Below are positions 1,603 to 34,860 of a stretch of 40,431 bases of DNA, one piece after another. The translations under genes and the position numbers were made by a program. The stretch is taken from assembly GCA_039794085.1 (NCBI GenBank), contig JBDIWC010000036.1, positions 1 to 40,431 of the forward strand. Reading direction: 5' to 3'. The notes beneath the pieces are model-generated. The model worked only from the letters and a program-made list of their open reading frames with translations, did not search any database and was not told the DNA's origin. The DNA comes from Gemmatimonadales bacterium (lineage in GTDB: Bacteria > Gemmatimonadota > Gemmatimonadetes > Gemmatimonadales > GWC2-71-9). Each line of letters opens with the position of its first letter. Position 1 is the stretch's first letter.

Positions 1603-1605
1603 GGT

Positions 1606-2514
<909 letters not shown>

Positions 2515-2524
2515 GTGTTGCCTT

Positions 2525-3232
2525 TCAGTGTGTGGGCTGTGACGCGTCCTGGAGCACCCGTGCCACCACGGCACAGAGCTGCTCGGGATCGTCGACGATG
2601 TTGCGGGAGGGGAGAAGACCCGCCGAGCGGACCCGCTCCCGGGTGAACGGCGTGGTCATCGCCACGCAGTGGGTGCCGGCGCGGACGGCCGCCTCCACCC
2701 CGGCGGGTGAATCCTCGATGACCAGGCATTCCGACGGCTCGCGACCCAGGGTACGCGCCACGAGCAGGTAGATCTCGGGGTCGGGTTTGCCGCGCTCGAC
2801 ATCCTCGCGGGTGACCACGACGTTGAACGTCTCCCGAAGATCGAGAATGTCGAGAACGCGGGACACTTCGGGACGGTGCGACATCGTGGCCAGGGCCACC
2901 TGGTCGCACATCGCGCGGGTCCCGTGGAGCAGTTCGATGGTGAAGGGCCACTGGTGGGATCGGAGGGTATCGGGATCCGCAATCATCTCCTGATAGATGG
3001 CGAGCCGACGCTCGACGTACTTCTCCCACGTGGCCCCGAGGCGAAAGCGCTCGACGAGGGTCCGGGCCACCTCCTCGCGGGGCAACCCGACCACGTCCGC
3101 AAAGGCCTCGTACACGGTGTCCTCCTCGAGGTCGGGTCGGATCTGCACCGCGGCCCGGGCATAGGAGATTGCCTTGAGTTTTTCGGTCTGAACCAGCGTG
3201 CCGTCCAGATCGAACACAGCCGCCCGGATCAT
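2525..3232 (-). CDS. HAD-superfamily hydrolase (beta-PGM/CbbY-like phosphatase)
   Basis: FDLDGTLV, KPDPEIY, IEDSPAG motifs; ATGA overlap with the upstream tal-pgi. Confidence 0.9.
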   Translation of the reverse strand: MIRAAVFDLDGTLVQTEKLKAISYARAAVQIRPDLEEDTVYEAFADVVGLPREEVARTLVERFRLGATWEKYVERRLAIYQEMIADPDTLRSHQWPFTIELLHGTRAMCDQVALATMSHRPEVSRVLDILDLRETFNVVVTREDVERGKPDPEIYLLVARTLGREPSECLVIEDSPAGVEAAVRAGTHCVAMTTPFTRERVRSAGLLPSRNIVDDPEQLCAVVARVLQDASQPTH

Positions 3233-8108: not shown

Positions 8109-8138
8109 GAGTACATCTCCCTCAAGAGAAACCAACAA

Positions 8139-9152: not shown

Positions 9153-9943
9153 GCCGGAATACCCTGGTTGCGGGGAATCTCAGCCGCGGCCGCCTCATCG
9201 GCGAGCCAGCGCAACCGCCCCTGCACCGGCCGGATCAACTGGGCCGGAAACCGGATGGTGTTTCCGGGGGGCGCGAGTACCTCCCTCAAGGTTGCTGCTT
9301 TCGCCGGACCCGTCACCAGAAAGAGAACCTCCCGAGCCTGGTTGATGGGGACGGTGGTGAACGTCACCCGCCAGCGATTCTGTGACGGGGTGAAGACCGG
9401 CACCACCCACCGCCTCCGCGGGTTCACCCCGTCGAGTTCCCGACGAAAGATGTCGCTTCCGGGGAAAATCGAGGCGGTGTGGCCATCGGCCCCGAGTCCA
9501 AGCAGAACCATGTCGAGGGCGCCGCGGCTCCCTCCTCCCCCCGCCTCCCCCTCGTCGAGCCAGGAGAGGAGGGTCGCTTCATACTCGGCGGCGGCCCGAT
9601 CGGGGGCGATCTCACCCCGGATCCGGTGAATGGCGGCGGGAGGGACCGGGAGATGGTCCAGCAGGGCGCGGGCGGCAGATCCGTAGTTGCTCTCCGGGTC
9701 GTCCGGGGGGACGCAGCGTTCGTCGCCCCAGAAGAGGTGGACCCGGCCCCAATCCACCGCATCCCGCCGGGGCGCACGAGCCAGGAGGGAGTAGCACACC
9801 ACTGGGGTGGAGCCCCCGGCGAGCGCCACGCCAAAGCGCCCCCGGGCCTCGATCGCGGCCGCAGCCGCAGCCACGAACCGGTCCGCAGCCTCGGTGGCCA
9901 CGTCCTCGGCGGAGTTTTTCACCTCCAAGGCATCGGTCGGCAT
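9149..9943 (-). CDS. pgl: 6-phosphogluconolactonase
   Basis: LAGGSTP, WGDERCVPPDDPESNY, LLGLGADGHTASIFP; start at 9943 (GGAAGAGG RBS) preferred over 9979. Confidence 0.93.
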   Translation of the reverse strand: MPTDALEVKNSAEDVATEAADRFVAAAAAAIEARGRFGVALAGGSTPVVCYSLLARAPRRDAVDWGRVHLFWGDERCVPPDDPESNYGSAARALLDHLPVPPAAIHRIRGEIAPDRAAAEYEATLLSWLDEGEAGGGGSRGALDMVLLGLGADGHTASIFPGSDIFRRELDGVNPRRRWVVPVFTPSQNRWRVTFTTVPINQAREVLFLVTGPAKAATLREVLAPPGNTIRFPAQLIRPVQGRLRWLADEAAAAEIPRNQGIPA

Positions 9944-10028
9944 AGAGTGAACCCTCTTCCACCTGCGTGTCAACTGCATGTCATCCGTGTGTCGTGAGCG
10001 AAAGAAACCACCACCTTCCTTCTCTATG

Positions 10029-14620: not shown

Positions 14621-16618
14621 TCAGAGGACCCCATTCACATCGTCCACCCAGGCCCGCAACACCTCCGCCACACTCCACGCCTGCGCGATCGCCCCCCGCG
14701 GCGCATGCGGGGGATCCCCGTCGAAGATCTCCGAGAGGCTCCCGACCCCGGCCTCGGCCAGGTGACCCATGACTCCCTCGATCAGCACCCGGGCCTGGGC
14801 CCGCCCCCGGTCGCCCCGCTCCCGCACCAGCGCGGTCACGAACGGGCCCAGGAGCCAGAGCCACACCGTCCCCTGGTGGTAAGCGCCGTCCCGCCGGAGA
14901 GGGTCGCCCTCGTACCGCGGCTGATAGGCTGGATCACTGGGCGCCAGACTGCGCAGGCCCACCGGGGTCAACAGTGCATTCTCCACCACGCGCAACACCT
15001 GTCGGCGCCGGGTCGCGGACAGCAGCGGAAAAGGAAGGGAGCAGGCGAAGAGCTGGTTGGGCCGCACCGAAGCGTCCCGCCTCTCGCCGTCCACCACGTC
15101 GTAGAGGTGGGCACCCTCCCGATACCAGAAGGTCCGCGCAAACTGTCGGCTGACCCTGGCGGCGTGGCGCTCGGATTCCCTGGCGCGATCCTCCTCTCCC
15201 GCCTCCCGTTCGAACTCCGCCAGGATCCGGAGCGCATTGTACCAGAGCGCATTGATCTCGACCGGCTTGCCGATGCGTGGAGTCACCACCCAGTCACCCA
15301 CCTTGGCATCCATCCAGGTGAGCTGGACCCCGGGTTCCCCCGCGCGGAGCAGTCCGTCCCCCTCGACCCGGATGCCGAACCGGGTCCCCTCGCGGTGCCA
15401 GCGGATGATCTCCCGCAGCACCGGGAGCAGCTCGCGGACCAGGGCGTGATCTCCAGTAGCCCGCAGATACGCACGGAGGGCGACAAAGAACCAGAGCGTG
15501 GCATCGGCGGTGTTGTACTCGGGTGTATCTCCCTCGTCGGGGAAACGGTTGGGAAGCATCCCCCGATCCGCCCAGGAGGCGAAGGTCTGGAGGATCCTCC
15601 TGGCCTCGGTGGGCCTGCCGGTGGCGAGGGTGAGGCCAGGGAGCGCAATCAGCGTGTCCCGTCCCCAGTCCCCGAACCAGTGATAACCGGCGATGACCGT
15701 GCGCATGCCATCACCGCGCTTCACCAGAAACTGATCCGCCGCGAGCGACAGCGGAACGGTGACATGATCGCGGAACGGCAGACGATCCAGCAATGCCTTG
15801 CGGCGAGCGTGTTCTCCACTCACCAGCGCTTCCCCATCGCGCCCCGTCGCATCGGTCGTGGAGGCGATCACGGCGACCCGTTCCCCCGGGGCCAGGCGGA
15901 CCCGCGTCACTGCCGGAGTCCAGAGATCCTCCCGATGGTCGAAGCCCCGCTCCAACTCCCGCAGATACTCAAAATCATGCCACCACTCCGCCCGGGTTTC
16001 GAATTCGCCGCCGGGCACGGAGAGATGAAGCATGGTCCCCTCCGCGAAGGGACCCACCTGGAGCCGGGAGCCCTCGACGACCGCGGGAGGCATGACGTCT
16101 TCGGCGTGGCGGAGACTGTGATAGTCGCGACCGGCAACGAAAGGCTGAAGCTCCAGGGTGACCGGCCCCGCACTCTCCACCAGCTCGTACACCACCACGG
16201 TCGTGTTTTCCCCGTCGATCGCCACGATGGTTTTCCGGAGACGGATGTCCTCGATCCGGTATTCGAACACCGGGAAGATGCCGCGTTCGAAGGAGTGGAG
16301 ATGGGTGAATCCGTCGGGATGAAGGGCACCGGGAAACTGATTGGTGCCGAGAGCGACGCGGTGGGTCCCGAACGTCACGGTCTCGTCCAGCCGGGACAGA
16401 AGCACGACCCGGCCAAGCGGCGAACGGGTCGCGGCCACGAGCAGACCGTGGTACCGCCGGGTGTTGGCGCCCGTCACTGAACTGCTTGCCCATCCCCCCA
16501 TGCCGTTGGTTTCGATCCACTCGCGTCGCGAGGCGGCATCGAAGTCACCCAGGACCTCCTGGCCGAGGCGAACCGGCCACAGGGAAGCGGGCACCACCGT
16601 GGCGTTCGAGGGATTCAT
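14621..16618 (-). CDS. Glycogen debranching enzyme (amylo-alpha-1,6-glucosidase, archaeal type)
   Basis: REWIETNGMGG, TRRYHGLL, AGYHWFGDWGRD, QLTWMDAK, GKPVEINALWYNAL, YHQGTVW, QAWSVAE. Confidence 0.95.
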   Translation of the reverse strand: MNPSNATVVPASLWPVRLGQEVLGDFDAASRREWIETNGMGGWASSSVTGANTRRYHGLLVAATRSPLGRVVLLSRLDETVTFGTHRVALGTNQFPGALHPDGFTHLHSFERGIFPVFEYRIEDIRLRKTIVAIDGENTTVVVYELVESAGPVTLELQPFVAGRDYHSLRHAEDVMPPAVVEGSRLQVGPFAEGTMLHLSVPGGEFETRAEWWHDFEYLRELERGFDHREDLWTPAVTRVRLAPGERVAVIASTTDATGRDGEALVSGEHARRKALLDRLPFRDHVTVPLSLAADQFLVKRGDGMRTVIAGYHWFGDWGRDTLIALPGLTLATGRPTEARRILQTFASWADRGMLPNRFPDEGDTPEYNTADATLWFFVALRAYLRATGDHALVRELLPVLREIIRWHREGTRFGIRVEGDGLLRAGEPGVQLTWMDAKVGDWVVTPRIGKPVEINALWYNALRILAEFEREAGEEDRARESERHAARVSRQFARTFWYREGAHLYDVVDGERRDASVRPNQLFACSLPFPLLSATRRRQVLRVVENALLTPVGLRSLAPSDPAYQPRYEGDPLRRDGAYHQGTVWLWLLGPFVTALVRERGDRGRAQARVLIEGVMGHLAEAGVGSLSEIFDGDPPHAPRGAIAQAWSVAEVLRAWVDDVNGVL

Positions 16619-17235
16619 GGTGTGATCCGCCGACGGCCACCTTCGTAGGCCATGATCCCGTCGTTCACGGTGTTGAGGAGCAGGATCGCGTCAGGCCTGC
16701 CGTGGCACACCATGAGGTCGAGCATCATCGCCTCCTCGCCCCCCCAGGGGAAGGCGAAGACCAGATCAAAGTCGTCGAGTGCGCGTCCCAGCTTGAGGTA
16801 TCCTGAGGGTCCGCGTCCGATCGTACCGGTCCGGCCATCCCCCCCTCGGGGACGCCAGCGGTACCCCTCGGGAAGGAAGCTCCCCGCCACGAAGGTGGCC
16901 GCCGAGTCGTGACGCACCGCCAGGTCGCGGGCGGTGGCGACCAGAGCGTCATCCAGCTCGATGCCGCATGCCGTGAATCCGAGCAGATCGGCCATCACGG
17001 TGATGACGCCCATGGCCGATCCCCACTCCAGGAACCGGAGACCCGGGGCCCGCAGGCGGACCAGCATCTCCTGCACCGGACCATACTCGGCGGGCACGAA
17101 CGGATGGAATCCGGCCTCCGTCCGGTCCCTGCCGAATCGATCGGACAGGGCCCACCCCTCCTCGCGCACCGCCTCGAGACGTCTCTCCAGCGCCGCATTC
17201 AAGGTCGGGAGCATCGATTCCGCGCCAGAGTTCAT
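16615..17235 (-). CDS. Putative class I SAM-dependent methyltransferase
   Basis: Motif I FLEWGSAMG, GIELD, DLVFAFPW; ATGA overlap with the debranching gene. Confidence 0.7.
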   Translation of the reverse strand: MNSGAESMLPTLNAALERRLEAVREEGWALSDRFGRDRTEAGFHPFVPAEYGPVQEMLVRLRAPGLRFLEWGSAMGVITVMADLLGFTACGIELDDALVATARDLAVRHDSAATFVAGSFLPEGYRWRPRGGDGRTGTIGRGPSGYLKLGRALDDFDLVFAFPWGGEEAMMLDLMVCHGRPDAILLLNTVNDGIMAYEGGRRRITP

Positions 17236-17467
17236 GACCCGCGTCTCCCGTCGTCGAGGTGAGCGGCGGTTCCGCTCCCCCTCCCGGGGAAGCTAACCCA
17301 CCGGGCGCCGGACCGCGCAGGATGGCTGCCGCTTGCGGGGACGCCCCCGAGTTGCCTCTATTGGAAGACGGGCGCTTTGCAATCCGATGCCCCCTCCCGC
17401 GCGTGTCAGCGGAGACAGCGTTCGGCCGTGGTCTGTCCCCCGGCGGTCCCGTGAGCAAGGAAGTCCG

Positions 17468-19015
17468 ATGAGCACATCGATCCCGACTCTGGTTCCCCTC
17501 CTGGTTCATCTGAGCGGCGCTCGGCGCGGACGGGCCGACCGGCTCGAGGGGGACGCCATCCCCCTCCGCGTTCATCCCGGACGCACTGCGGCTCCCGACT
17601 TCACGCCGAGCGCCGTGGGAGTGGCCACCCTGCACCGGCGTGGAGGGTCGTATGAGATCGTTGCGGGGGAGGGTACGCCGGTCTGGGTCAACGGGGAGCA
17701 GGTCTCCCGTCTGGTCCTCGCTTCCGGCGACGTGATCGAGCTCGGGGCGGGCGGCCCGGTGGTCCGGTTCCGGCTTCAGGAGGAGGGGACCGAGGGGTCG
17801 AAGTCGATCCAGGATGTGTTCAGCGACTGCTGGGCCTGCGCTCGCTATGACGGGGGCGGGATCTGGCACCAGGCGAAGCTCTTTCTGGGCGGAGTTCCGA
17901 TGGAGCTCGCCACCCGCACCACCATGGTGTTCCGGGTCTCCGTGGCGGCCCTCATCGTGATCCTGGGCATCTCCACCGCGGTGATCGGCCGGAAGAATGC
18001 CCAGCTCGCCCGGACCATGGACCGGGACCGGGTCGAACTGGCCGATCTCGCCTCCCTGCTGCAGCAGTCCCGGGACAACCCCGCCACCTCGGATGGTCTT
18101 CTCGCCGTGTTGCAGGAGGTGCGGGACAGCCTGTCCCTCGCATCGGAACGACTCGGCGCTCTCGAGACTCGTTCCGGCGCCCCGACCCGTATCATCGAGA
18201 GCGCATCCCGGTCGACGGCGTTCCTGATCGGGGCGTACGGGTTCCAGGATCCCAAGACCGGCCGAACGCTCCGCTTCGCCCTCGATGCCGCAGGCAAGCC
18301 ACAGAAGTCCCCCTCGGGCGAAACCGCGATCACCCTGGAAGGGAACGGACCTCCTCTGGAGGCCTTCTACACCGGCACCGGGTTCGTCATCGGCCCCGAC
18401 CTGGTGGCGACGAACCGTCATGTGGCGCTCCCGTGGGACTTCGAATCGGCCGCCCAGGAGATGATGAAGCAGGGGTGGGTTCCGGTCATGCGCCGGTTCC
18501 TCACCTACCTCCCCGGGATCCCGGAAGCCTTCGAGACCCGGTTTGTTGGGGCGGGGTCCGACGCCGATGTGGCGATTCTCCGGCTTCCGAAGCTGAATGG
18601 ACGAGTGCCCCCACTTCCCCTGTCCGCCCCCATTCCCCGGGCCGGCGATGAGGTGCTGGTCCTCGGGTACCCCTTGGGAATCCGTGCCCTCATGGCCCGT
18701 GCCGACGCCCGCATGGTGGCCCGGCTCCTCAGTGAAGGAGATCTCGATCCGTGGAAGGCGGCATCCCGTCTCGCCGCCGAAGGGTACATCACGCCGCTGG
18801 CCAGCCGGGGGATCGTGGGGCAGGTCACCTCCGAGGCGATCGTCTACGACGCCGAGACCACCCATGGGGGGAGCGGGGGCCCGGTTCTGACCATGGCGGG
18901 GGAGGTCATGGCGATCAATGCCGCGATCCTCCCCGAATATGGGGGATCGAACCTCGGGGTTCCGGTGTCCCGGGCGCGGGCGCTCCTCACGGCGGTGTCC
19001 GCCCCAAGGAAATGA
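17468..19015 (+). CDS. Membrane-anchored trypsin-like (S1) serine protease with an N-terminal FHA-like domain
   Basis: ATG 17468; FHA-like 'VWVNGEQV..LVLASGDVIELGAGGP'; TM helix; coiled region; triad TNRHV / DVAIL / GGSGGPV. Confidence 0.85.
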   Translation: MSTSIPTLVPLLVHLSGARRGRADRLEGDAIPLRVHPGRTAAPDFTPSAVGVATLHRRGGSYEIVAGEGTPVWVNGEQVSRLVLASGDVIELGAGGPVVRFRLQEEGTEGSKSIQDVFSDCWACARYDGGGIWHQAKLFLGGVPMELATRTTMVFRVSVAALIVILGISTAVIGRKNAQLARTMDRDRVELADLASLLQQSRDNPATSDGLLAVLQEVRDSLSLASERLGALETRSGAPTRIIESASRSTAFLIGAYGFQDPKTGRTLRFALDAAGKPQKSPSGETAITLEGNGPPLEAFYTGTGFVIGPDLVATNRHVALPWDFESAAQEMMKQGWVPVMRRFLTYLPGIPEAFETRFVGAGSDADVAILRLPKLNGRVPPLPLSAPIPRAGDEVLVLGYPLGIRALMARADARMVARLLSEGDLDPWKAASRLAAEGYITPLASRGIVGQVTSEAIVYDAETTHGGSGGPVLTMAGEVMAINAAILPEYGGSNLGVPVSRARALLTAVSAPRK

Positions 19016-19040
19016 GGCTCTTCGTCGGGGATGAGGGGGG

Positions 19041-19075
19041 GAAGTTTGAAGTTTGAAGGAGGAAGTTTGAAGGAG
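19041..19075. repeat. Heptamer array GAAGTTT/GAAGGAG, 5 units
   Basis: GAAGTTT GAAGTTT GAAGGAG GAAGTTT GAAGGAG; reverse complement of the ACTTCAA family. Confidence 0.85.
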
Positions 19076-19160
19076 GAAATACATGGTCCGGATCCCGGTG
19101 CCCTCGCGTCCCCAAACCATGTACCCTTCGGGTCTCACTTTTCCCCGATTCGGGTCCATC

Positions 19161-20492
19161 ATGATGACACGCTCCCTCCTTTCTCCTGCCGCGACTCTTC
19201 TCCTCGTCATGGCTGCTCCCGTCGCCACCTTGGCGGCCCAGGGCCTCACCGACGCCGAGCGGCGAATCGCCGTGGCGGTGGATGCCGGAGTGGCCGACGC
19301 GACGGCTCTGCTCGAACGCACGGTCAACATCAACAGCGGATCCCTCAACCTGGAGGGAGTCCGCCGCGTGGGGCGGCTCTTCCGCACCGAGTTTGACCGG
19401 CTCGGTTTCACGACGCGCTGGGTGGACGGTGCCGCCTGGGGCCGCGCAGGTCATCTTTTCGCCGAGCGTCGGGGTCATGGCCGCGGACCGCGGATCCTGC
19501 TGATCGGTCATCTCGACACCGTCTTCGAGGCCGATTCCCCCTTTCAGCAGTACTCGGTGATTTCGCCCGATCGGGCGCGCGGTCCCGGCACGACCGACAT
19601 GAAGGGGGGCAACGTCGTCATGCTCCTCGCATTGCGGGCTCTCGCGGAGACTGGCCAGCTCGACGACCTGCAGATCCAGGTAGTGCTCATTGGGGACGAG
19701 GAGGACAGCGGTGATCCGATCGAACTCGCGCGGAAGGACCTGATCGCCGCCGCCGAATGGGCCGACATCGCCATCGGGTTCGAGGACGGGGACGGAAACC
19801 CGGCCACCGCGGTGATTGGACGACGCGGTTCCACGAGCTGGGTCCTTCGGACCACCGGGCGTCCGGCCCACTCCTCCCAGATCTTCCGTGAGGGATACGG
19901 AAGCGGGGCCATCTTCGAGGCGGCCCGGATTCTGGCGGCCTTTCACGACTCGCTGAGCACCGAGCCGAACCTCACCTTCAATCCCGGTGCGATCGTGGGG
20001 GGGACGGCGGTCACCTTCGATGAGGTGGAGAACCGGGGGACCGCCTTCGGCAAGACCAACGTGATCGCAGATCAGGCGGTGGTGGCGGGGGACCTCCGCA
20101 CCCTGACCCCTGAACAACTGGCCTCCGCCAAGCTCCGGATGACGGCGATCGTGGCCCGGCATCATCCGGAAACCGGTGCCACCATCGCGTTTCACGACTC
20201 CTATCCCCCTCTCGCACCGACCGACGGAAATCATCAGCTCCTCGCCCGGTTCGACCGGGCGAGTCAGGATCTCGGCGGGGGACCGGTCACCGCGGTCGAT
20301 CCGGCCCGGGCCGGCGCCGCCGACATCTCGTTCACGGCGGGTCTCGTGGACATGGCCCTCGACGGGGTGGGGCTCATGGGAACGGGGGGACACACCGTGG
20401 AGGAGACCGCCGATCTCACGACGCTACCCCTGCAGGCCAAACGCATCACCGTCCTGCTCCATCGCCTGGCCCGGGGACAGCCGGGGACCTGA
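19161..20492 (+). CDS. Secreted M20-family metallopeptidase (glutamate carboxypeptidase/CPG2-like)
   Basis: Signal peptide from ATG 19161; IGHLDTVF, GPGTTDMKGG, GDEE, GFED, AHSS, GGHT. Confidence 0.92.
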   Translation: MMTRSLLSPAATLLLVMAAPVATLAAQGLTDAERRIAVAVDAGVADATALLERTVNINSGSLNLEGVRRVGRLFRTEFDRLGFTTRWVDGAAWGRAGHLFAERRGHGRGPRILLIGHLDTVFEADSPFQQYSVISPDRARGPGTTDMKGGNVVMLLALRALAETGQLDDLQIQVVLIGDEEDSGDPIELARKDLIAAAEWADIAIGFEDGDGNPATAVIGRRGSTSWVLRTTGRPAHSSQIFREGYGSGAIFEAARILAAFHDSLSTEPNLTFNPGAIVGGTAVTFDEVENRGTAFGKTNVIADQAVVAGDLRTLTPEQLASAKLRMTAIVARHHPETGATIAFHDSYPPLAPTDGNHQLLARFDRASQDLGGGPVTAVDPARAGAADISFTAGLVDMALDGVGLMGTGGHTVEETADLTTLPLQAKRITVLLHRLARGQPGT

Positions 20493-25358: not shown

Positions 25359-25439
25359 GACGACACTGCCTGGTGACGACGGAAACCTGGGGTTGGGATC
25401 CGACAATGGTACCGACAGCCGGGAGCCCCCGTCAAGGAA

Positions 25440-26375
25440 TCACGGATCACCCCGGCGAAATCGTTGCACGTCGAGCCGGAAGATGTCGGGACGGTGGTAG
25501 TGTCCCGTGACATCGAGGGTCATCGCCTCGCGCCGGCACGCCCCAAGATCGAGTTCGGCGATCACCAGGGTGGGGGTGTCGTACACGGGGTCGGTGAGGT
25601 ACGCCCCGTCGGGTCCGATGATGGCGCTTCCCCCCCGGAGCACCCAGTCATCCGGGCCCGCCACCCGTTCGGGATGGGGGGTGAGTTCCGGTGGCAGATC
25701 CCGGGCCCGGAGGAGGGCCCCCGCGGCCAGCACGAAACAGCGCCCCTCGAAGGCATACTGCCGGCTGGCCACCTGGTGCATCTCGTGCACCGTGGGCCAG
25801 ACCGCCACATGGATCTCCTCCCCCTCCTCGTGGAGCACCTGACGCGCCAGGGGCATCCAGTGCTCCCAGCAGATGAGGGCCCCGACCCGGCCGGCGGGGG
25901 TGTCCACGCTCCGGAGCCCCGTGGCATCGCCCGGGCCCCAGACCATCCTCTCGGTGTACGTGGGAACGAGCTTCCGGTGGTGGTTGAGCAATCGTCCGTC
26001 CGGACCCCACGTGAGAATGCTGTTGTAGAGGGTTCCCTGGCCCGGGCCCCGGCGCACCCGCTCCACCACTCCCACCACGAGAGTCGCCTCGGCCTCGCGT
26101 GCCAGGGCACCGAGGGCGGCCCCACTCTCCCCGGTCACCTCCACACTTTCGTCCATCATCCTCTGGAACACCGCCTTGACCGGCGGATGATTCCAGAGCG
26201 CCGAATCGGAGCAGACGTCCAGCCAGGCGGGATACCCGGGGAGCCAGGTTTCGGGGAGGACCACGAGCGTGGCGCCGCGGGCCCGGGCCTCCCGCACCAG
26301 GGACGCGGTCCGGCGCATCCCCTCCGCCAGCGTCGCGGCCTGTTCCGCCTGGACGATCGCGACGATGACACTCAC
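25440..26375 (-). CDS. Nitrilase (carbon-nitrogen hydrolase, branch 1-like)
   Basis: Triad PETWLPGYP / HRKLVPT / ICWEHWMPLAR; C-terminal DVTGHYHRPD. Confidence 0.93.
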   Translation of the reverse strand: MSVIVAIVQAEQAATLAEGMRRTASLVREARARGATLVVLPETWLPGYPAWLDVCSDSALWNHPPVKAVFQRMMDESVEVTGESGAALGALAREAEATLVVGVVERVRRGPGQGTLYNSILTWGPDGRLLNHHRKLVPTYTERMVWGPGDATGLRSVDTPAGRVGALICWEHWMPLARQVLHEEGEEIHVAVWPTVHEMHQVASRQYAFEGRCFVLAAGALLRARDLPPELTPHPERVAGPDDWVLRGGSAIIGPDGAYLTDPVYDTPTLVIAELDLGACRREAMTLDVTGHYHRPDIFRLDVQRFRRGDP

Positions 26376-26378
26376 CTG

Positions 26379-26909
26379 TTATCCCTCCAGCTCCACTCCG
26401 AGGCCGTCGGCAATCCGGTTGACGAAGGCGAAATAGGCCGTGATGGCGGCGATGTCGTGGATGCCCCGGTCATCGTATCCCGCGGCACGCAGGGCCTCCA
26501 CATCCCCGGTGGTGATGGTCTGCGGCGCCTCCGTCAGCTTGAGGGCATAGGCCAACATCGCCCGGTCCGCTATGGACTCCACCGCCGCCACCGGGTCCCG
26601 TGCCAACCCCTCCAGTAGCGCGTCGATCGCTCCCGTATCCCACTTCTCGCGTTCCAGCAGCCGACGGAGACCCGCTCCGTGATGGACCAGTCAATACCGG
26701 CACGCGTTCCGGGCCGACACCGCCACGGCGATCATCTCCCGCTGGGGACGCGTGAGAGGGCCCGCCGCGTACATCAGCTCCCGGTAGAGGGCATTGTGAA
26801 GCGGGCCGGTGCGCGCATGCACCCCATGGATCCGGAGGATGTTGTCCTGATCGGTGACCCGGTCCTCGGGGGGGATCGCCTCGGGGGGAACGTACCGGAT
26901 GAAAGCCAC
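26379..26909 (-). CDS. AhpD/CMD-family peroxidase-related protein; candidate selenoprotein with in-frame UGA at codon 73 (CxxU)
   Basis: ORFs 26691-26909 and 26379-26606 are in one frame, separated only by TGA at 26691-26693. Read-through gives 176 aa with REMIAVAVSARNACRY-U-LVHH ... FVNRIADGLG. Confidence 0.85.
26657..26690 (-). promoter_or_regulatory. Candidate bacterial SECIS element
   Basis: UGA-CUGGUCCAUC-ACGGAG-CGGGU-CUCCGU-CGGCUG: perfect 6-bp upper stem, G-containing loop starting 17 nt after UGA, possible wobble lower stem UGGUC/GGCUG. Confidence 0.7.
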
Positions 26910-26912
26910 GCG

Positions 26913-28949
26913 TCACTTCTCCTCGGTGTGATTGTTCTCGGCCGCCACCCGGGCCGCCACCTCGGGCGGAGCCTCCGCGTAGCCATGGAACCGCTGATGA
27001 AACGTCCCCCGTCCATGGGTGATCGAATGGAGGGTCGTGGTGTAGCGATACAGCTCGGCCTCGGGTACGATGGCCTGGACCCGGATGAGTCGCCCTTCCG
27101 GTTCCGTGCCCAGGATCTGGCCCCGGCGGGCGCTGAGGTCGCCCAGCACGTCGCCCAGCACGTCGTCCGGAACCCAGACCGACACCTCGGCCAGGGGCTC
27201 CAGCAGGACCGGCCGACAGGTTGGCGCCACGTTCCGGAAGGCGAGAATCCCGGCCATCTTGAAGGACATTTCGTTGGAATCGACGTCGTGATACGACCCG
27301 TCGTAACACTCGGCCTGAAAATCGACCAGGGGGTATCCTGCCACAACTCCCCGTTGGGCCGCCTCCTGGATGCCGCGATCCACCGCGGGGATGTACTTGT
27401 TGGGGATCACACCGCCCACGATCGCGTCCACGAAGGCGTACCCGCTGCCGCGCGGCCGGGGAGAGAGCCGGATCCGGCAATCGCCATACTGCCCCCGCCC
27501 TCCCGACTGTTTCTTGTGCTTCCCCTGGCCCTCTCCCCGCCCCTTCAGCGTTTCGCGGTACGCCACCCGGGGCCGAACCAGCTCCGCCTGGACCCCGAAT
27601 CGCCGTTCCAGCAACCCCAAAATCACCTCGAAATGCCGTTCACCCATCCCACGGAGGAGAGTTTGCCCCAATTCCGAGTTGTAGGCGAAGTGAAAGGTGG
27701 GGTCCTCTTCGTGGAGGCGATGCAGGCCGGCCGCCAGCTTGTCCTCCTCCCCCCGCACCGTGACCACCACACCCGAGACCGCAATCGCCTCCGGGAACGG
27801 GATCGGATCGAGCTTCACTGGTTCGCGCGCGAGGCAGAACGTGTCGTTGGTGTGGGTATCCTTCAGTTTCGCCACGGAACCGATGTCCCCGGCACGCAAC
27901 TCCGGCACCTCGATCCGATCCTTCCCTTGCTGGAGGGAGAGGTGGTTCAGCTTCTCCACCACTTCGTGCTCGGCGTTGAACACCTCATCCCCGTTCTTCA
28001 GCGAGCCGTGGTAGAGCCGGAAGAGGCTCACATCGCCCAGGTGCTGCTCCGACATAATCTTGAACACCCGGCCCACCAAGGGGGCTCGTACCGGTGGCTC
28101 GACCTCCGCCGGGGAGGGGAAGAGTTCCACCATCTCGGTGAGCAACGTCCGGATTCCGTAAGTCAGCGTGCCACTTCCCACGAACATCGGGACGATCTCG
28201 CCCGCGCGCATCGCCCGCTTGAGCGCCGCGGTCAGCCGCTCCCGGGGCAGAGGCTCGCCACTCAGGTACTGCTCCAGCAGGGCATCATCGGTGGCCGCGA
28301 TGGCCTCCGTGAGCTGTTCGTCATACCGGGAATGGGTTTCCCGGTAGTCATCGGGCAGGGCCGTTTCGCGGAACTCACTCTTCGAGCCCGGCGTGTATTC
28401 CTGCAGCTTTCCGGTGAACAGGTTGATGATGCCGTGGAAGGCGGGACCGTCACCGACGGGAATCTCGACCGGCACCACCTTGGGGCTCAGATGGGTTCGG
28501 ACATCCTCGAACACCCGCCCGAAATTGGCCCGCTCCCGGTCCATCTGGGTCACGAACAGGATCCGGGGAAGATGCAGGCGGTCGCAGATCTCCCACACCT
28601 TCTCGGTGCCGACTTCGACCCCGCTGGTGCCATTCAGCACCACCACCGCCGCGTCCGCCGTGTACAATCCGGTGGTCGCCTCGCCGAGAAAATCGAGATA
28701 TCCCGGCGTGTCGATGAGATTGATCTTGGTGTCCATCCACTCGGCGTAGGCGAGCGCGAGGCTGATGGAGTGCTGGCGGGCGATTTCGTCGGGAGTGTGG
28801 TCAGTGAGGGTGGTGCCGTCCTGAATCGTGCCGTGGCGCCTGCTGCTGCCGGAAACGAACGCCAGGGCGTCCACCAGCGTCGTTTTCCCGGACGATCCGT
28901 GGCCCACGAAGGCCACATTCCGGATCGCCTCAGTCGAATAGACCCGCAT
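26913..28949 (-). CDS. Elongation factor G paralogue (EF-G2 / EF-G II type)
   Basis: ATG 28949 with GGAGG RBS; GHGSSGKTT, DTPGYLDF, GMGERH, KKQSGGRGQY, DGSYHDVDS, LLEPL; G motifs diverge from canonical FusA. Confidence 0.93.
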   Translation of the reverse strand: MRVYSTEAIRNVAFVGHGSSGKTTLVDALAFVSGSSRRHGTIQDGTTLTDHTPDEIARQHSISLALAYAEWMDTKINLIDTPGYLDFLGEATTGLYTADAAVVVLNGTSGVEVGTEKVWEICDRLHLPRILFVTQMDRERANFGRVFEDVRTHLSPKVVPVEIPVGDGPAFHGIINLFTGKLQEYTPGSKSEFRETALPDDYRETHSRYDEQLTEAIAATDDALLEQYLSGEPLPRERLTAALKRAMRAGEIVPMFVGSGTLTYGIRTLLTEMVELFPSPAEVEPPVRAPLVGRVFKIMSEQHLGDVSLFRLYHGSLKNGDEVFNAEHEVVEKLNHLSLQQGKDRIEVPELRAGDIGSVAKLKDTHTNDTFCLAREPVKLDPIPFPEAIAVSGVVVTVRGEEDKLAAGLHRLHEEDPTFHFAYNSELGQTLLRGMGERHFEVILGLLERRFGVQAELVRPRVAYRETLKGRGEGQGKHKKQSGGRGQYGDCRIRLSPRPRGSGYAFVDAIVGGVIPNKYIPAVDRGIQEAAQRGVVAGYPLVDFQAECYDGSYHDVDSNEMSFKMAGILAFRNVAPTCRPVLLEPLAEVSVWVPDDVLGDVLGDLSARRGQILGTEPEGRLIRVQAIVPEAELYRYTTTLHSITHGRGTFHQRFHGYAEAPPEVAARVAAENNHTEEK

Positions 28950-28981
28950 GGTCCCGACCTCCCTCGGCAAGAGTCACCCTG

Positions 28982-29010
28982 ATTCTGGGGGCCGGAGCCC
29001 CCGTTGTCAA
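28982..29010 (-). promoter_or_regulatory. Sigma70-type promoter for the EF-G2 operon
   Basis: TTGACA-N17-CAGAAT; a dyad GGGGGC-TCCG-GCCCCC fills the spacer. Confidence 0.6.
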
Positions 29011-29011
29011 A

Positions 29012-30031
29012 TCAGGCGCCGACCCCGCGCAGCCGACGGCGGAACTCCCGGAAGGAGACGAGCTCCCGCGCATCCTCATCCCACAGCTTGAGTTTGATCG
29101 TCCGCAGGCTCTCCCCGAGGGTGATGATCCGCACACTGTGGAACATCGGGTTCTCCTCATGGCACCGCCGGAGGAAATAGTTCGGAATCCGGGGCGAGAG
29201 GTGGTGAACATGGTGAACCCCGATGTATCCGGTGATCCACTCGAGGGGCCGGGGGAGCTTGAGATAGGAACTCCCCTGGATGGCTGCCGTGGCGTAGTTC
29301 CACTCGCCCTCGCCCGCCCAGTAGGTGTCCTCGAACTGGTGCTGCACGTAGAAGAGCCAGATTCCCGCCGCCCCGCCGATCATGAACACCGGGAACCAGA
29401 TCAACAGGATGGCCTTCCAGCCTATCAGGAAACCGAGCCCCACCACGATCGCCGCCAGAACCAGATTGGTCATCATCACGCTCATGGCTTCCTTGCGACC
29501 TGCCCCGAACACCTTGATCCGGTGCTGCAGCATCAACCACAGCGGACCGATTCCGAACATCACCAGGGGATTCCGGTACACGCGATAGCGGAATCGGCCG
29601 AACCACCCGAGGGCCAGATACTCGCGGATCGTGAGGGTGCTGATGTCCCCCACGCCCCGGTCATCCAGGTTGCCGGAGGTCGCGTGGTGAATCGCATGGT
29701 CCCGCCGCCACTGAACGTAGGGCGTGAGCGTCAGGACGCCGGTCGCAAAACCGACGATGTCGTTCCAGCGGCGGGACGGCAGGAACGACCCGTGTCCGCA
29801 GTCGTGCATGATGATGAAGGTGCGGACCATGAAACCGGCCGCCACCACTCCCAGTCCCAGAGTCAGCCAGTAGCTGACCGACAGAGTCCAGTACATCGCC
29901 ACCAGCAGGGTCAGAAACGGCACCAGCGTCGTGACCAGCTGGGTCACCGCGGCCCGCACCGAGGGACGCTGATACCGCGCGACCACCTCGCGCCAGCTCA
30001 GGTCGGGGGAAGCATCAGTTGCATTCGTCAT
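29012..30031 (-). CDS. Membrane fatty acid desaturase (Bacillus Des-like)
   Basis: His boxes HDCGH, HAIHH, HHVHH; WLFYVQHQFE; PRIPNY. Confidence 0.93.
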   Translation of the reverse strand: MTNATDASPDLSWREVVARYQRPSVRAAVTQLVTTLVPFLTLLVAMYWTLSVSYWLTLGLGVVAAGFMVRTFIIMHDCGHGSFLPSRRWNDIVGFATGVLTLTPYVQWRRDHAIHHATSGNLDDRGVGDISTLTIREYLALGWFGRFRYRVYRNPLVMFGIGPLWLMLQHRIKVFGAGRKEAMSVMMTNLVLAAIVVGLGFLIGWKAILLIWFPVFMIGGAAGIWLFYVQHQFEDTYWAGEGEWNYATAAIQGSSYLKLPRPLEWITGYIGVHHVHHLSPRIPNYFLRRCHEENPMFHSVRIITLGESLRTIKLKLWDEDARELVSFREFRRRLRGVGA

Positions 30032-30495: not shown

Positions 30496-31560
30496 TCAGC
30501 CTCCGATTGAGGCGAGGGGCAGGGGCGCCCGGGGATACTCCGTGGGCGTCGCCTCGGGTATCGCGTCCAGAGGGGCGCCATCGGGAGTCTCCAGCACGAA
30601 GCCCAGATCCCGGATCATCGCAAAGTCGTCCTGGACCTGTTGCCCTTGAGTAGTGAGATAGTCCCCTATGAAGATCGAGTTGGCCGGATAGAGTCCCAGA
30701 GGCTGCAGGGAGCGAAGGTGGACCTCCCGTCCCCCCGCGATCCGGATCTCCTGGCTGGGCAGGAGGAACCGGAAGAGCGTCAGAATGCGGAGGCATCGGC
30801 GGGGGTCCAGCTCCCGGACCGACTCCAGCGGAGTTCCCTCCACGGGAATCAGGAAGTTGACGGGGACGCTGCGCACCTCGAGTTCCCGCAGGCTGAGCGC
30901 CAGATCGATGATGTCGTCATCACTCTCCCCCATGCCGAGGATCCCGCCGGAACAGGTCTTGATCCCCGCGGCCCGGACATGATCCACCGTCTCCCGCCGG
31001 TCCTGGAAGGTGTGGGTGGTGCAGATCTCTCGGTGGAAACGCTCCGACGTGTTGAGATTGTGGTTGACAGTTTCCACACCCGCCTCCGCGAGCCGGGTCG
31101 TCTGCTCGGCGGTGAGGAGCCCGAGGCAGGCGCAGATCTTGAGATCGTGCCGGGCACGGATGGTGCGCACCGCCTCCAGAACCTTGCCGAACACCCGCTC
31201 GCCCGGCGCCCGTCCGGAGATCACCATGCAGAAGGTCCCTGCCTTGAGTTCCGCGGCGCGGTCCGCGGCCAAGAGGATCTCGTCGATCGCCTTCATCGGA
31301 TATTTTTCGATCTCCGCCACCGAGACCTTCGACTGGCTGCAGTAGTGGCAATCCTCGGGACAGAGTCCGCTCTGGGCGTTGAGAAGGAAATGGAGACGGA
31401 CGCGGTTTCCCCAGTGATGATGGCGCACGCGCCACGCCGCGGCCAATTGCCCGGGAAGCTCCAGGTCGGGTGCGGTGAGCACGGCGAGGGCCTCCTCCCG
31501 GGAGAGGATCTCCCCGGCGAGAGCACGGTCCGCGAGCGAATTCCAGGAGGGCACCGTCAT
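30496..31560 (-). CDS. bioB: Biotin synthase
   Basis: CPEDCHYC radical-SAM motif, [35 protein letters not shown]. Confidence 0.97.
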
Positions 31561-32267
31561 GGAGATCCTTGTCCATCGGGGACGTTCAGGGTCGAAAGAA
31601 GCGACCGCACCGCCGCACGGGCAACGGCCGGGATCAGGTGACCACCCGCGTCACCGTCGATCAGAGGGAAGGTAATCACCGGAAGACCGGGGAGCAGCCG
31701 TCGGAGGGTCTCGCTGTTGGTCCGAGAGGCCACATCGGCGATGCCATCCCTCCCCTCGTTCAGCACCACGGCACTCACCGGCACGCCGGCCGACCGGGCG
31801 GCCTCCACCGTCAGCAGAGCATGGTTCAATACTCCGAGCCGGTTCAGGGCCACCACCACGAGGGGCATTCTCCAGTGCACACACAAGGAGAGGAAACTCA
31901 GATCCTTCCCATACGGAACCAGGAGCCCGCCGGCTCCTTCGACCACGACAACCTCATGGTTGTGCTCGAGGGCGGCGAGGTGGCGGTCCAGGACATCGAG
32001 GAGCACCGGATGACCCTCCCGGTCGGCGGCCACCAGCGGCGCACAGGGCTCGGCGTACCGGAAGGGGGACACCGCCCCCACTGCGAGTGACGATCTCGCC
32101 GCCTGGAGCAACCGTCCCGCATCTCCTCCCTCGCCGGGATTCACACCGGTCTCCGCGGGTTTCATCGGGGCCACCCGGTAGCCGTCCTCCGCGAGAGCGG
32201 CGAGAAGAGCCGAGGCCACCACCGTCTTCCCCACGCCGGTGTCGGTCCCCGTGATGCCGATCCGCAC
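31557..32267 (-). CDS. bioD: Dethiobiotin synthase
   Basis: GTG start at 32267; [37 protein letters not shown]. Confidence 0.95.
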
Positions 32268-33538
32268 TAGCGCGTCTCCAGGAATTCGCCGAGCACGGCG
32301 TAGACCTGGCGGAGTTCCTCGGGCCGGGTGCAATACGGCGGCATCACGTAGACCACCGAGCCAAGCGGGCGGAGCAGAACTCCCCGTTCGAGTCCGAAAG
32401 CGGTGAGGCCCCGCGCGGCAGAACTCAGATAGCCGGTCTCGGAATCGGCCAGGTCGAAGGCGGCGATCGTGCCCAGCACCCGGGGGGCCACGACCCGCGG
32501 GTACCGGGCCAGGCGGCTCATCTCGTCCCGGTGGACCGCTTCGAGGGTCCGTCGCTGGTCTGCCGAGCGCTCGTCGAAGAGAGCGAGACTGGCCCGAGCC
32601 GCGGCGCAGGCGATGGGGTTGGCGGTGTACGAATGTCCGTGAAAGAGGGCCGTGCGACGATCGGCCCCGAGAAAGGCCTCGAACACCTCCTCCGTCGCGG
32701 CGGTCACCCCGAGGGGGAGGGATCCGCCGGTCAATCCCTTGCTGAGGCAGATCAGATCGGGAGACACATCGGCATGCTCACAGGCAAACAGCGGACCGGT
32801 GCGGCCGAACCCGGTCATCACTTCGTCGGCGATCAGGAGCACACCCTCGGAACGGACCTTGCCGGCGAGGGCCCGGAGCGTGGCCGCATCCCACATGCGC
32901 ATCCCGGCGGCCCCCTGCACCAGGGGCTCCACGATGATCGCGGCGATCTCGGATCCCCGGTGATCGAGCATCCGGTCGAGCGCCGGGAGGAGACCGGGAT
33001 CTCCGGGGGCGGGAAGGCGTTCCACGGCAAAGAGCTGGTCCTGGAAGGCCGCGGTGAACACACCCCGGGCGCTCACGCTCATCGCGCCGAAGGTATCTCC
33101 ATGATAGGCGTCCTCCAGGGCGAGCATCACCGACCGGGGAGACCCGCGGTTCCGGTGGAACTGGAGCGCCATCTTGAGGGCCACCTCCACCGCGGTCGAT
33201 CCGTCATCCGAATAGAAGATGCGGGCCAGTCCGGACGGGAGCCGGGCCAGAAGTTCCTCCGCCAGTCCCACAGCCGGTTCGTGGGTGCATCCGGCGAAGA
33301 TGACCTGGTCGAGCAGGGCCGCCTGGGCCCCGATCGCGGCGGCGATGGCGGGGTGGGCGTGTCCATGCACGGTGACCCACCAGGAGCTGATCGCGTCAAG
33401 GTAGCGTTGATTGCCGGGGCCCACCAGCCAGGCCCCCTCCCCCCTGATCACCGGAACCGGAGGGGTCTGTCCGAAGTGCTGGGTCCAGGGATGCCAGCAG
33501 ACCCTGGCGTCCCGGGCGGGGAGTCCCGATTTGCTCAC
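32267..33538 (-). CDS. bioA: Adenosylmethionine-8-amino-7-oxononanoate aminotransferase
   Basis: GTG 33538 (GTGA overlap with bioF); WHPWTQ, DAISSWW, YHGDT, DEVMTGFGRTG, SKGLTGG, HSYTAN. Confidence 0.95.
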   Translation of the reverse strand: MSKSGLPARDARVCWHPWTQHFGQTPPVPVIRGEGAWLVGPGNQRYLDAISSWWVTVHGHAHPAIAAAIGAQAALLDQVIFAGCTHEPAVGLAEELLARLPSGLARIFYSDDGSTAVEVALKMALQFHRNRGSPRSVMLALEDAYHGDTFGAMSVSARGVFTAAFQDQLFAVERLPAPGDPGLLPALDRMLDHRGSEIAAIIVEPLVQGAAGMRMWDAATLRALAGKVRSEGVLLIADEVMTGFGRTGPLFACEHADVSPDLICLSKGLTGGSLPLGVTAATEEVFEAFLGADRRTALFHGHSYTANPIACAAARASLALFDERSADQRRTLEAVHRDEMSRLARYPRVVAPRVLGTIAAFDLADSETGYLSSAARGLTAFGLERGVLLRPLGSVVYVMPPYCTRPEELRQVYAVLGEFLETR

Positions 33539-34743
33539 GACCCGGTCCGCGCCACCGGGAGAAGCTCCCCCAGCACCTCCGCCAGGGCATCGAGCTGCGG
33601 AGCGGTGTGGACGGCGCTCACCGTGATCCGGAGCCGGGCTTGGTTCACCGGGACGGTGGGAGACCGGATCGCCCCCACCAGGAAACCCCGGGACAGCAGG
33701 GCCGACCCGAGGGAGGTGGTCGCCTCGCTCGCGCCGATGCGCACCGGCAGGATGGGGGTGGCGGGGTCTCCCCCCACGGCGATGCCCCGATCCGCCAGCG
33801 CACCCCGGAGGCGGCTCACGTTTCCCCTCAGGGTGTCCCGCAGCTGAGGATCGGTGCGGGCCCGCTCCAGGGCCGTACGGGTGGCCCGGGCCAGGGGCGC
33901 CGGGGTTCCGGTGGTGTAAACGAAGGTCCGCGCCCGGTGACGCAGGTACTCGACCAGCGTGTCGGTTCCCGTCACGAAGGCACCGCTGACGCCGAGCGCC
34001 TTCCCCAGGGTCCCCATGACCACGTCCGGGGGACCCTCGCACAACCCCCAATGTTCCACCGTCCCGCGCCCTCCCTCGCCGAGCACGCCGGTGCCATGCG
34101 CATCATCGACGTAGACCCAGGCCTCGTACTCGCGGGCCAGCATCAGCAGATCCCGGAGCGGAGCGATGTCGCCATCCATGCTGAACACCCCGTCGGTGAC
34201 GATCCACCGGCGGCGGAAACGGTGGGCGCTCTCGGCGAGGCATGTCCGCAGGGCCCCGGGGTCGGCGTGCGGGTACACGAGGGTGGTGGCCCGGGAGAGT
34301 CGGCACCCGTCGATCAGGGACGCATGGTTGAGCTCGTCGGCGTAGATCCCGTCGCCCTGGTCCGCCAGCGCGGGGAGGGTTCCGAGGTTGGCCAGGTACC
34401 CGGAGCCGAAGAGGAGGGCGGAGGCGGCTCCCTTGAAATCGGCCAACTCCCGTTCCAGTGCATCGTGTTCGAGGCGGTTCCCCGAAATGAGCCGGGCGGC
34501 TCCGGCACCCACCTCCCCGTCGAGAAGCCCGAGACGAACAGAATCGATCACGGCGGGGTCGCTGGCCAATCCGAGATAGTCATTCGATGAGAAGTCGATG
34601 ACGGGGCGACCCTGCACGAGCAGTGACACCCCGTGCCGGGCTTCCAGGTGCGGGAGCACGCGCCGAAGCCCCGCCCGATCGAGGGCGGCGAGGGAACGGG
34701 CCAGGTGATCGTCGAGCGCGGGAGAGCGCGTCATCGAGGGCAT
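33535..34743 (-). CDS. bioF: 8-amino-7-oxononanoate synthase
   Basis: FSSNDYLGL, NHASLIDG, VFSMDGD, DDAHG, GTLGKA; start 34743 or 34734. Confidence 0.95.
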   Translation of the reverse strand: MPSMTRSPALDDHLARSLAALDRAGLRRVLPHLEARHGVSLLVQGRPVIDFSSNDYLGLASDPAVIDSVRLGLLDGEVGAGAARLISGNRLEHDALERELADFKGAASALLFGSGYLANLGTLPALADQGDGIYADELNHASLIDGCRLSRATTLVYPHADPGALRTCLAESAHRFRRRWIVTDGVFSMDGDIAPLRDLLMLAREYEAWVYVDDAHGTGVLGEGGRGTVEHWGLCEGPPDVVMGTLGKALGVSGAFVTGTDTLVEYLRHRARTFVYTTGTPAPLARATRTALERARTDPQLRDTLRGNVSRLRGALADRGIAVGGDPATPILPVRIGASEATTSLGSALLSRGFLVGAIRSPTVPVNQARLRITVSAVHTAPQLDALAEVLGELLPVARTGS

Positions 34744-34860
34744 GGGATCCGGGAGCGTGGGGGTGATGGTAAGATAACGGGACTGGCGGGGGTCCCGATG
34801 GCACCACGCCGCCCCCGGAATCCCCGGAGACGGCGTGTTCACGATTCTTGAGCAGTGAGT

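What the first reader, a model, noticed from the sequence alone, without database searches (positions are those of the whole stretch)
26379..26909. Hidden candidate selenoprotein: AhpD-like CxxU gene split by an in-frame UGA, with a SECIS-like hairpin
Seen: two short ORFs (72 and 75 aa) are in one frame, and the only stop between them is TGA 26691-26693. Read-through gives 176 aa with NACRY-U-LVHH, and the 28 codons after the TGA are open. The hairpin ACGGAG-CGGGU-CUCCGU starts 11 nt after the UGA. Known: the AhpD core is CxxCxxxH, bacterial SECIS elements lie directly 3' of the UGA with a G in the loop, and AhpD-like selenoproteins have been predicted before. Inference: Sec replaces the second Cys, and pipelines would miscall this as two hypotheticals or a pseudogene. 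Other TGAs in the window act as normal stops, so this is not a global code change.
Basis: partly seen in the sequence, partly recalled or inferred. Interest (0 to 1): 0.88.

Follow-up and report, generated by a model that had tools for sequence, protein, structure and literature searches.

The report
Known-family AhpD-like selenoprotein gene
The apparent stop codon inside this small antioxidant-type gene is almost certainly read as selenocysteine, so the gene is intact, but it belongs to a selenoprotein family predicted since 2005 and is ordinary.

Summary
The minus-strand gene 26909-26379 has one in-frame TGA, codon 73, in C70-R-Y-U73-L-V-H-H77. Read through, it passes the TIGR01926 cut-off (108 vs 81.8 bits); neither piece does. 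The genome has selA, selB, selD and tRNA-Sec. At this column 154 of 160 public loci have TGA, 6 have TGC and none has TGG. TGA is the normal stop in 14 of 16 window genes checked. The hairpin is not significant alone. Across loci it is: fully paired in 80 of 154 TGA loci against 3.3 expected from synonymous recoding, and in 0 of 6 Cys loci. A 2026 review lists 'AhpD-like protein, TIGR01926, CxxU' as predicted, not experimentally verified, citing the 2005 Sargasso Sea study. This scan reported the same family in six other genomes. The likely function is peroxide or disulfide reduction through a Glu58-His77-Sec73 relay (inferred). It corrects an annotation and is not a discovery.

The parts
26379..26909 (-). 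AhpD-like (TIGR01926, peroxidase-related) selenoprotein gene, 176 aa, GTG start, TAA stop
   Evidence: 108 bits against a cut-off of 81.8 when read through; the pieces score 30 and 58.9
26691..26693 (-). In-frame TGA, codon 73, predicted selenocysteine at the second Cys position of CxxC
   Evidence: TGA in 154 of 160 public loci, TGC in 6; aligns to Cys in solved structures 3C1L, 2PFX, 2PRR
26664..26680 (-). Bacterial SECIS-like upper stem-loop (6 bp, 5-nt loop CGGGU, 16 nt from UGA to loop), overlapping the codons for H-G-A-G-L-R
26700..26702 (-). Cys70, first residue of CxxU (predicted resolving Cys)
   Evidence: Cys in 160 of 160 loci; the only Cys in the protein besides position 73
26736..26738 (-). 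Glu58, proton-relay residue (same spacing as PA0269 Glu36 and M. tuberculosis AhpD Glu118)
   Evidence: for the spacing; 160 of 160, but this residue was part of the search pattern
26679..26681 (-). His77, proton-relay residue (PA0269 His55, M. tuberculosis His137)
   Evidence: 160 of 160 loci
26919..26924 (-). Shine-Dalgarno-like GAGGAG, 9 nt before the GTG start, inside the end of the upstream gene
   Evidence: Seen directly in the sequence; function not tested
26913..28970 (-). Upstream neighbour: elongation factor G-like gene (EF-G2 type), 3 nt before the selenoprotein start; linkage seen only within the genus
25440..26375 (-). Downstream neighbour: nitrilase-family gene, starting 3 nt after the TAA; adjacent in two same-genus genomes, not a conserved partner elsewhere

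Best explanation
This is one intact gene for a 176-aa AhpD-like redox protein. SelB binds the hairpin just 3' of the UGA and delivers Sec-tRNA, so codon 73 is read as selenocysteine (probability about 0.96). The protein most likely acts as a thiol/selenol oxidoreductase in oxidative-stress defence (about 0.8 given Sec). A Glu58-water-His77 relay activates Sec73, which reduces a peroxide or a partner's disulfide; Cys70 resolves it as a selenenylsulfide; a cellular reductant, by analogy a lipoyl/NADH system, restores it. SHOWN here: frame, TGA/Cys pairing, Sec machinery, hairpin constraint and relay spacing. INFERRED: Sec incorporation, the roles of Sec73 and Cys70 (recalled from M. tuberculosis AhpD, not read), substrate and electron donor.
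For: The family score passes its cut-off only on read-through. selA 531 bits, selB 283 bits and selD 389 bits all pass their cut-offs, and selD has its own in-frame TGA; tRNA-SeC(tca) is on contig C12. TGA stands at column 73 in 27 of 30 loci from this genome and its relatives; of the other three, one has GAC, one covers only the C-terminal part and one gave no alignment. In public collections the column is TGA in 154 of 160 loci, TGC in 6 and TGG in 0; only one of the 160 has another stop. The hairpin is fully paired in 80 of 154 TGA loci against 3.3 expected. In the 58 loci encoding HGAGLR the synonymous positions are the pairing ones (His CAC 58, Gly GGA/GGG 58, Leu CTC/CTT 58, Arg CGT 50). 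Double changes keep pairs: C-G to T-A in 10 loci and G-C to C-G in 9. 0 of 6 Cys loci have 5 or more of the 6 pairs. The spacing E58/C70/Y72/U73/H77 equals PA0269 E36/C48/Y50/C51/H55, a protein with weak Cys-dependent H2O2 reduction (PMC3141380, passages). A Deinococcus AhpD-like deletion is H2O2-sensitive and rescue depends on the CxxC cysteines (PMC8945050, passages).
Against: There is no direct evidence of Sec in the protein or of expression. The hairpin in this gene is marginal alone: -6.7 to -7.3 kcal/mol for the bare stem against the model's -7.5, and alternative folds win in 45-, 54- and 101-nt windows. A motif-plus-hairpin scan of the genome gives 943 candidates among 47,032 TGAs, so a hairpin by itself means little here. 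The fixed register fails when divergent paralogues are pooled (60.9% paired; 41 of 500 shuffles as high); they have hairpins at other offsets. selA is in 54 of 61 genomes searched, so co-occurrence has little power. Two of the 25 genomes with a TGA homologue have no selA match: G031 has selB, and G054 (85% complete) has neither over the cut-off. Loci are related, so the counts are not independent. No conserved partner gene points to a substrate.
Confidence: 0.8

Rival explanations
1. It is a selenoprotein, but its real job is not peroxide defence. It could be another selenol chemistry, such as reductive dehalogenation like the AhpD-fold debrominase Bmp8, or repair of an oxidation-sensitive enzyme thiol such as the neighbouring nitrilase's.
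For: The family profile also matches Bmp8 (E 1.4e-6) and sestrin-2 (E 4e-8). The four closest structures are labelled uncharacterised or putative. Measured peroxidase activity of PA0269 is weak and no substrate site is known. Nitrilase-family genes lie in the flanks of 6 of 188 loci.
Against: The matches to TIGR01926-type structures are far stronger (E 4e-47 to 7e-39). The full AhpD relay is kept. The gene is spread over many phyla with no recurring neighbour in more than 9 of 186 loci. What Bmp8 does mechanistically is recalled; the paper search found none.
Confidence: 0.15
2. UGA is read as Trp, Cys or Gly by a changed code or by leaky read-through, giving CxxW as in many database entries.
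For: 27 of the 59 database proteins that span the column have W there.
Against: No TGG in 160 loci. Two of those W entries align to a TGA in near-identical DNA, which points to gene-caller miscalls; the other 25 could not be checked. 14 of 16 window genes end in TGA. The only TCA-anticodon tRNA found is called SeC.
Confidence: 0.02
3. It is a pseudogene, a sequencing error, or two separate small proteins.
For: Databases hold the C-terminal part as a separate protein in 61 of 120 best hits.
Against: The same TGA sits in the same column across genomes down to about 30% identity and in many phyla, with intact frames on both sides. A stop there would cut the active site between Cys70 and His77. 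Run X1 matches the stretch with 0 differences, though it may be the source.
Confidence: 0.02

Closest known systems
AhpD-like protein selenoprotein family (TIGR01926 / COG2128, CxxU; 'AhpD-like 1'). Sargasso Sea 2005, PMC1088965; GOS 2008, PMC2398784; review 2026, PMC13188914; BSepDB, PMC13326102
   Same: Same model (TIGR01926, over cut-off), same CxxU motif, single Sec, SECIS-like hairpin directly 3' of the UGA, widespread Cys homologues. The family had 27 sequences in the Sargasso data and 299 in GOS.
   Different: No difference in kind was found. I did not align this protein to the listed representative (MCB9421940.1), so the assignment rests on the HMM and motif. Whether this gene is already in BSepDB could not be checked.
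Cys-type peroxidase-related AhpD-like proteins with solved structures: 3C1L (Mlr4105), 2PFX, 2PRR, 2OYO, 6K40
   Same: Match over most of the length (E 1e-21 to 4e-16 for the single sequence; 4e-47 to 7e-39 for the profile), with REM..vS..N.C.YC...HG and the C-terminal NR kept.
   Different: They have Cys where this gene has UGA. This protein has an insertion of about 8 residues after the HGAGLRR helix. That 6K40 is Deinococcus DR1765 is recalled, not shown by a call.
Mycobacterium tuberculosis AhpD and Pseudomonas aeruginosa PA0269
   Same: Identical spacing of the five relay residues; Tyr in the third position as in PA0269.
   Different: Not an orthologue of AhpD proper: TIGR00777 gives 19.3 bits against a cut-off of 191.95, and no ahpC was seen among the neighbouring genes scanned.
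Other AhpD/CMD-fold selenoprotein families: NF041238 (AhpD-related CFYUT), NF053654 (YciW-related), CMD-like PF02627 ('AhpD-like 2')
   Same: AhpD/CMD core; CxxU is listed for NF041238 and the CMD-like family.
   Different: NF041238 scores 50.1 against a cut-off of 175 and is a 357-position model. NF053654 does not match this protein and matches only 11 of 50 homologues.

Membership tests
AhpD-like selenoprotein (TIGR01926, CxxU) | TIGR01926 score above the curated cut-off | tested here: met
   108 bits vs 81.8; 99.5 bits in the six-frame search
AhpD-like selenoprotein (TIGR01926, CxxU) | CxxU motif with one in-frame UGA | tested here: met
   C70-R-Y-U73
AhpD-like selenoprotein (TIGR01926, CxxU) | UGA aligns with Cys in homologues (Sec/Cys pair) | tested here: met
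   28 of 59 spanning database proteins are CxxC; 6 of 160 loci have TGC; PDB homologues
Bacterial selenoprotein gene | selA, selB, selC and selD in the genome | tested here: met
Bacterial SECIS (consensus model as given in PMC13188914) | 3-9 nt loop, 4-16 bp stem, G in the first two loop positions, 16-37 nt from UGA to loop | tested here: met
   5-nt loop CGGGU, 6 bp, G second, 16 nt. The optional N1-N2 closing pair is absent here and present in many relatives.
Bacterial SECIS (consensus model as given in PMC13188914) | Free energy of -7.5 kcal/mol or lower | tested here: inconclusive
   -6.7 and -7.3 for the upper stem alone; -9.5 and -11.7 with the lower stem. bSECISearch itself was not available.
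Bacterial SECIS | Structure kept in homologues beyond protein constraint | tested here: met
   80 of 154 vs 3.3 expected, with compensatory pairs; 66 of 66 cells paired in 11 loci picked for sharing the register; not met in one fixed register across divergent paralogues
Bacterial selenoprotein gene | Selenium in the protein product | not testable with these tools
   Needs 75Se labelling or mass spectrometry
AhpD-like peroxidase-related proteins | Relay Glu / Cys / Tyr-or-His / Cys / His at spacing 0, +12, +14, +15, +19 | tested here: met
   E58, C70, Y72, U73, H77
AhpD-like peroxidase-related proteins | All-helical AhpD fold | not tested
   No model was obtained; the fold is inferred from sequence matches to solved structures
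AhpD proper (TIGR00777) | Score above cut-off | tested here: not met
   19.3 vs 191.95 bits
AhpD-related CFYUT selenoprotein (NF041238) | Score above cut-off | tested here: not met
   50.1 vs 175 bits

The most novel reading that the evidence does not exclude
This widespread Sec clade is not a general peroxide scavenger but a selenol-dependent reductive dehalogenase or a dedicated enzyme-thiol repair protein. That would make it an AhpD-fold counterpart of the deiodinase selenoenzymes and give a new activity to a family that the 2026 review still lists as predicted only. Nothing here supports this beyond a distant match to Bmp8 and the lack of a known substrate.
Probability: 0.07. Interest if true: 0.6.

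Novelty: new member of a known kind. Interest (0 to 1): 0.2.

Why it matters
It fixes an annotation: public gene calls split this family into halves or put Trp at the active site. The family is abundant yet still listed as predicted, not experimentally verified, so a compact member with one Cys and one Sec is a usable test protein. The 154 TGA loci are a clean natural set of bacterial SECIS variants with compensatory changes inside a coding region. None of this changes what is known about Sec decoding or AhpD proteins.

Tried and rejected
The plus-strand reading of the coordinates is meaningless. An EF-G2/AhpD fusion by read-through was considered, because the upstream gene's TGA is in frame with this gene's GTG; the same-genus genome G002 has TAA and a 5-nt gap there, so it was rejected. 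A genome-wide TGA + motif + hairpin scan gave 943 candidates among 47,032 TGAs, visibly mostly noise, and was not used. One fixed hairpin register over 26 loci including divergent paralogues was not significant. Rfam found no match at E up to 1 in 25400-29100. No conserved neighbourhood: the largest neighbour cluster covers 9 of 186 loci, and an EF-G match is in 2 of 188 and a nitrilase-family match in 6 of 188, with flanks of only 1.5-3 kb. Sequencing runs: no RNA holder listed, which is no evidence either way. The four runs laid were contigs, not raw reads. X1 has 0 differences but may be the source. X5, X7 and X9 cover the codon with no listed change at 26691-26693, but 145 rows of that table were not shown, so I do not count this as proof. 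No structure model was obtained, so no fold search was run. Paper searches: 'Bmp8/debrominase/AhpD/Cys82' found 0. 'AhpD-like, selenoprotein, 75Se, recombinant, peroxidase activity' (4 of 5 terms) listed 12 of 13 papers, none containing 'AhpD-like'. 'Gemmatimonad, selenoprotein, selenocysteine' listed 8, none opened. These searches cover an open-access library only.

Full report
Observation. The feature lies on the minus strand. ORFs 26691-26909 (72 aa) and 26379-26606 (75 aa) are in one frame. Translating 26909 to 26379 shows a single internal stop, TGA at 26693-26691 (codon 73), in AVSARNACRY*LVHHGAGLRR, and a final TAA. A GAGGAG lies 9 nt before the GTG start. The hairpin ACGGAG-CGGGU-CUCCGU occupies 26680-26664, ten bases after the UGA.

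One gene, not two. Read through, the protein scores 108 bits on TIGR01926 (cut-off 81.8) and 44.7 on the AhpD core domain TIGR00778 (cut-off 27.8). The N-terminal ORF scores 30 and the part after the TGA 58.9 on TIGR01926. It matches five solved peroxidase-related AhpD-like structures; in the three alignments shown, their second Cys falls on codon 73. It is not AhpD proper (TIGR00777, 19.3 vs 191.95) nor the CFYUT family (NF041238, 50.1 vs 175).

Machinery. The genome (94.7% complete, 0.07% contamination) has selA on C1, selB on C98 and selD on C4, each over its cut-off, and selD has its own in-frame TGA. ARAGORN finds tRNA-SeC with anticodon TCA on C12 among 50 tRNAs. UGA is otherwise the ordinary stop: 14 of 16 Pfam-supported window genes that I checked end in TGA.

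The codon in homologues. Among 61 genomes (own plus 60 relatives), 27 have a match and 25 of these have a match with one TGA. In the 30 loci fetched, the stop sits at query column 73 in 27, including this gene and a paralogue on C43. One has GAC, one covers only the C-terminal part and one gave no alignment in my script. These tallies include one unpublished genome (G016); no claim depends on it. The named records are from Acidobacteriota, Gemmatimonadota, Planctomycetota, Chloroflexota, Bacillota and others. I did not determine the window's own taxon. selA passes its cut-off in 23 of the 25 TGA-bearing genomes. G031 lacks a selA match but has selB, and G054 (85% complete) has neither over the cut-off. 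Since 54 of all 61 have selA, this co-occurrence is weak evidence. Of five named-locus genomes checked, the three with TGA have selA; of the two with TGC, one has it and one has no match.

Database miscalls. Of the 120 best of 1250 database proteins, 61 start after column 73, 28 are CxxC, 27 CxxW and 4 other. P0003 and P0005 match locus L118 at 98% and 93% with their W on a TGA. The W forms are therefore probably gene-caller artefacts, shown for 2 of 27.

The hairpin. Alone it proves nothing: z-scores were -0.77 to +0.90, longer windows fold otherwise, and 1011 of 2000 synonymous recodings give an equally good stem somewhere in range, although only 433 of 20,000 give all six pairs in this register. 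It fits the geometric rules of the bacterial SECIS model and is borderline on energy. The comparative signal is strong. All six pairs form in 80 of 154 TGA loci against 3.3 expected when each locus is recoded synonymously. The mean best stem is -7.3 against -3.3 kcal/mol, and it is lower than the recoded mean in 146 of 154. In the 58 loci encoding HGAGLR, the third positions are those that pair, including Arg CGT in 50, a codon used for 8% of Arg in this window. Double changes occur at two pairs (10 and 9 loci). None of 6 Cys loci has five or more pairs. The register was taken from this gene and the loci are related, so these are not independent trials. Divergent paralogues place a hairpin with G early in the loop at other offsets, which is why one fixed register fails on the pooled set and holds on the 11 loci picked for sharing it.

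Mechanism. Clarke et al. describe the AhpD proton relay as Glu118, Cys130, His132, Cys133, His137 in M. tuberculosis and Glu36, Cys48, Tyr50, Cys51, His55 in PA0269, which reduces H2O2 weakly and needs free thiols. Here Glu58, Cys70, Tyr72, Sec73 and His77 have the same spacing. Cys70, Tyr72 and His77 are invariant in 160 of 160 loci; Glu58 is too, but it was in the search pattern. From memory, not from a call, the second Cys is the relay-activated nucleophile and the first resolves it; Sec in the second position fits that. M. tuberculosis AhpD is re-reduced by a lipoamide protein and NADH, and loss of the Deinococcus AhpD-like gene (COG2128) raises H2O2 sensitivity. I therefore read the product as a selenol/thiol oxidoreductase of stress defence, acting on peroxides or on partner disulfides. 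The genome has 13 AhpC/TSA-domain matches as possible partners, none on this contig. Substrate and donor are inferred. A dehalogenase role remains open only through a distant Bmp8 match.

Context. The gene sits 3 nt after an EF-G-like gene and 3 nt before a nitrilase-family gene, with a sigma-70-like site at 29010-28982 upstream of the first (2 sites found vs 0.8 expected, so weak). The arrangement recurs in the two same-genus genomes only, and no neighbour recurs in more than 9 of 186 loci.

What is known. The Sargasso Sea study reported 'AhpD-like protein', COG2128, CXXU, 27 sequences, with a predicted SECIS (PMC1088965, passages). GOS found 299 'AhpD-like 1' sequences (PMC2398784, passages). 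The 2026 review lists 'AhpD-like protein, TIGR01926, CxxU' under 'predicted with high confidence', not 'experimentally verified' (PMC13188914, passages and part 1 of 3 of section 7). BSepDB uses this family as its browsing example (PMC13326102, passages). PMC3141380, PMC6300522 and PMC8945050 were seen as passages; Koshkin 2003 and Zhao 2020 only as cited there. No supplements were read; those of the Sargasso, GOS and BSepDB papers may hold close sequences. Six earlier notes of this scan on other genomes reach the same family. I had that reading before seeing them, and they are not independent support.

Verdict. Observation confirmed and interpretation supported. This is a new member of a known, still unverified family. 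Interest 0.2.

Noticed in passing
G000:C43:19992-20546 (+), loci L033/L196: Second TIGR01926 gene in the same genome (139.7 bits, 42% identical to this one), also C-R-Y-TGA at the same column, with a hairpin further downstream. It also occurs in both same-genus genomes.
   Followed up: partly
G000:C9:48012-48398 (-) and C87:313-612 (-): Two AhpC/TSA-domain genes with an in-frame TGA (contexts T-K-G-U and F-T-U-A-Q-C), each followed by a stem-loop: probable peroxiredoxin-type selenoproteins.
   Followed up: partly
G000:C14:41300-42574 (+): Molybdopterin oxidoreductase match with one TGA inside; a possible further selenoprotein, position not checked.
   Followed up: no
G000:C4:72190-73110 (+), locus L004: SelD is itself a predicted selenoprotein (HGAG-U-ACK).
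   Followed up: partly
window 26910-26915: The EF-G-like gene's stop TGA is in frame with the selenoprotein start (TGA CGC GTG). Same in G001, not in G002, so probably chance.
   Followed up: yes
L009 (G050:C109:6338-9862): The TGA gene lies next to a second AhpD-like match without a stop (C109:8553-8885), a tandem pair.
   Followed up: no
L092, L105, L107, L109: Bacillaceae records carry the TGA form with a compensated hairpin (H-G-A-A-L-H, U-A in place of C-G); the two genomes checked (L092, L107) have selA.
   Followed up: partly
window 16949-19411 and 18987-20393 (-), 16615-17235 (-): Long ORFs (820, 468 and 206 aa) with no Pfam match at E 0.001; I did not check whether they are the true frames.
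   Followed up: no
window 133-9979 (-): Pentose-phosphate cluster with a 918-aa transaldolase/phosphoglucose-isomerase fusion at 3229-5985.
   Followed up: no
window 30496-34842 (-): Biotin synthesis cluster by Pfam content (radical SAM with BATS domain, AAA_26/CbiA, class III and class I/II aminotransferases); gene names inferred.
   Followed up: no
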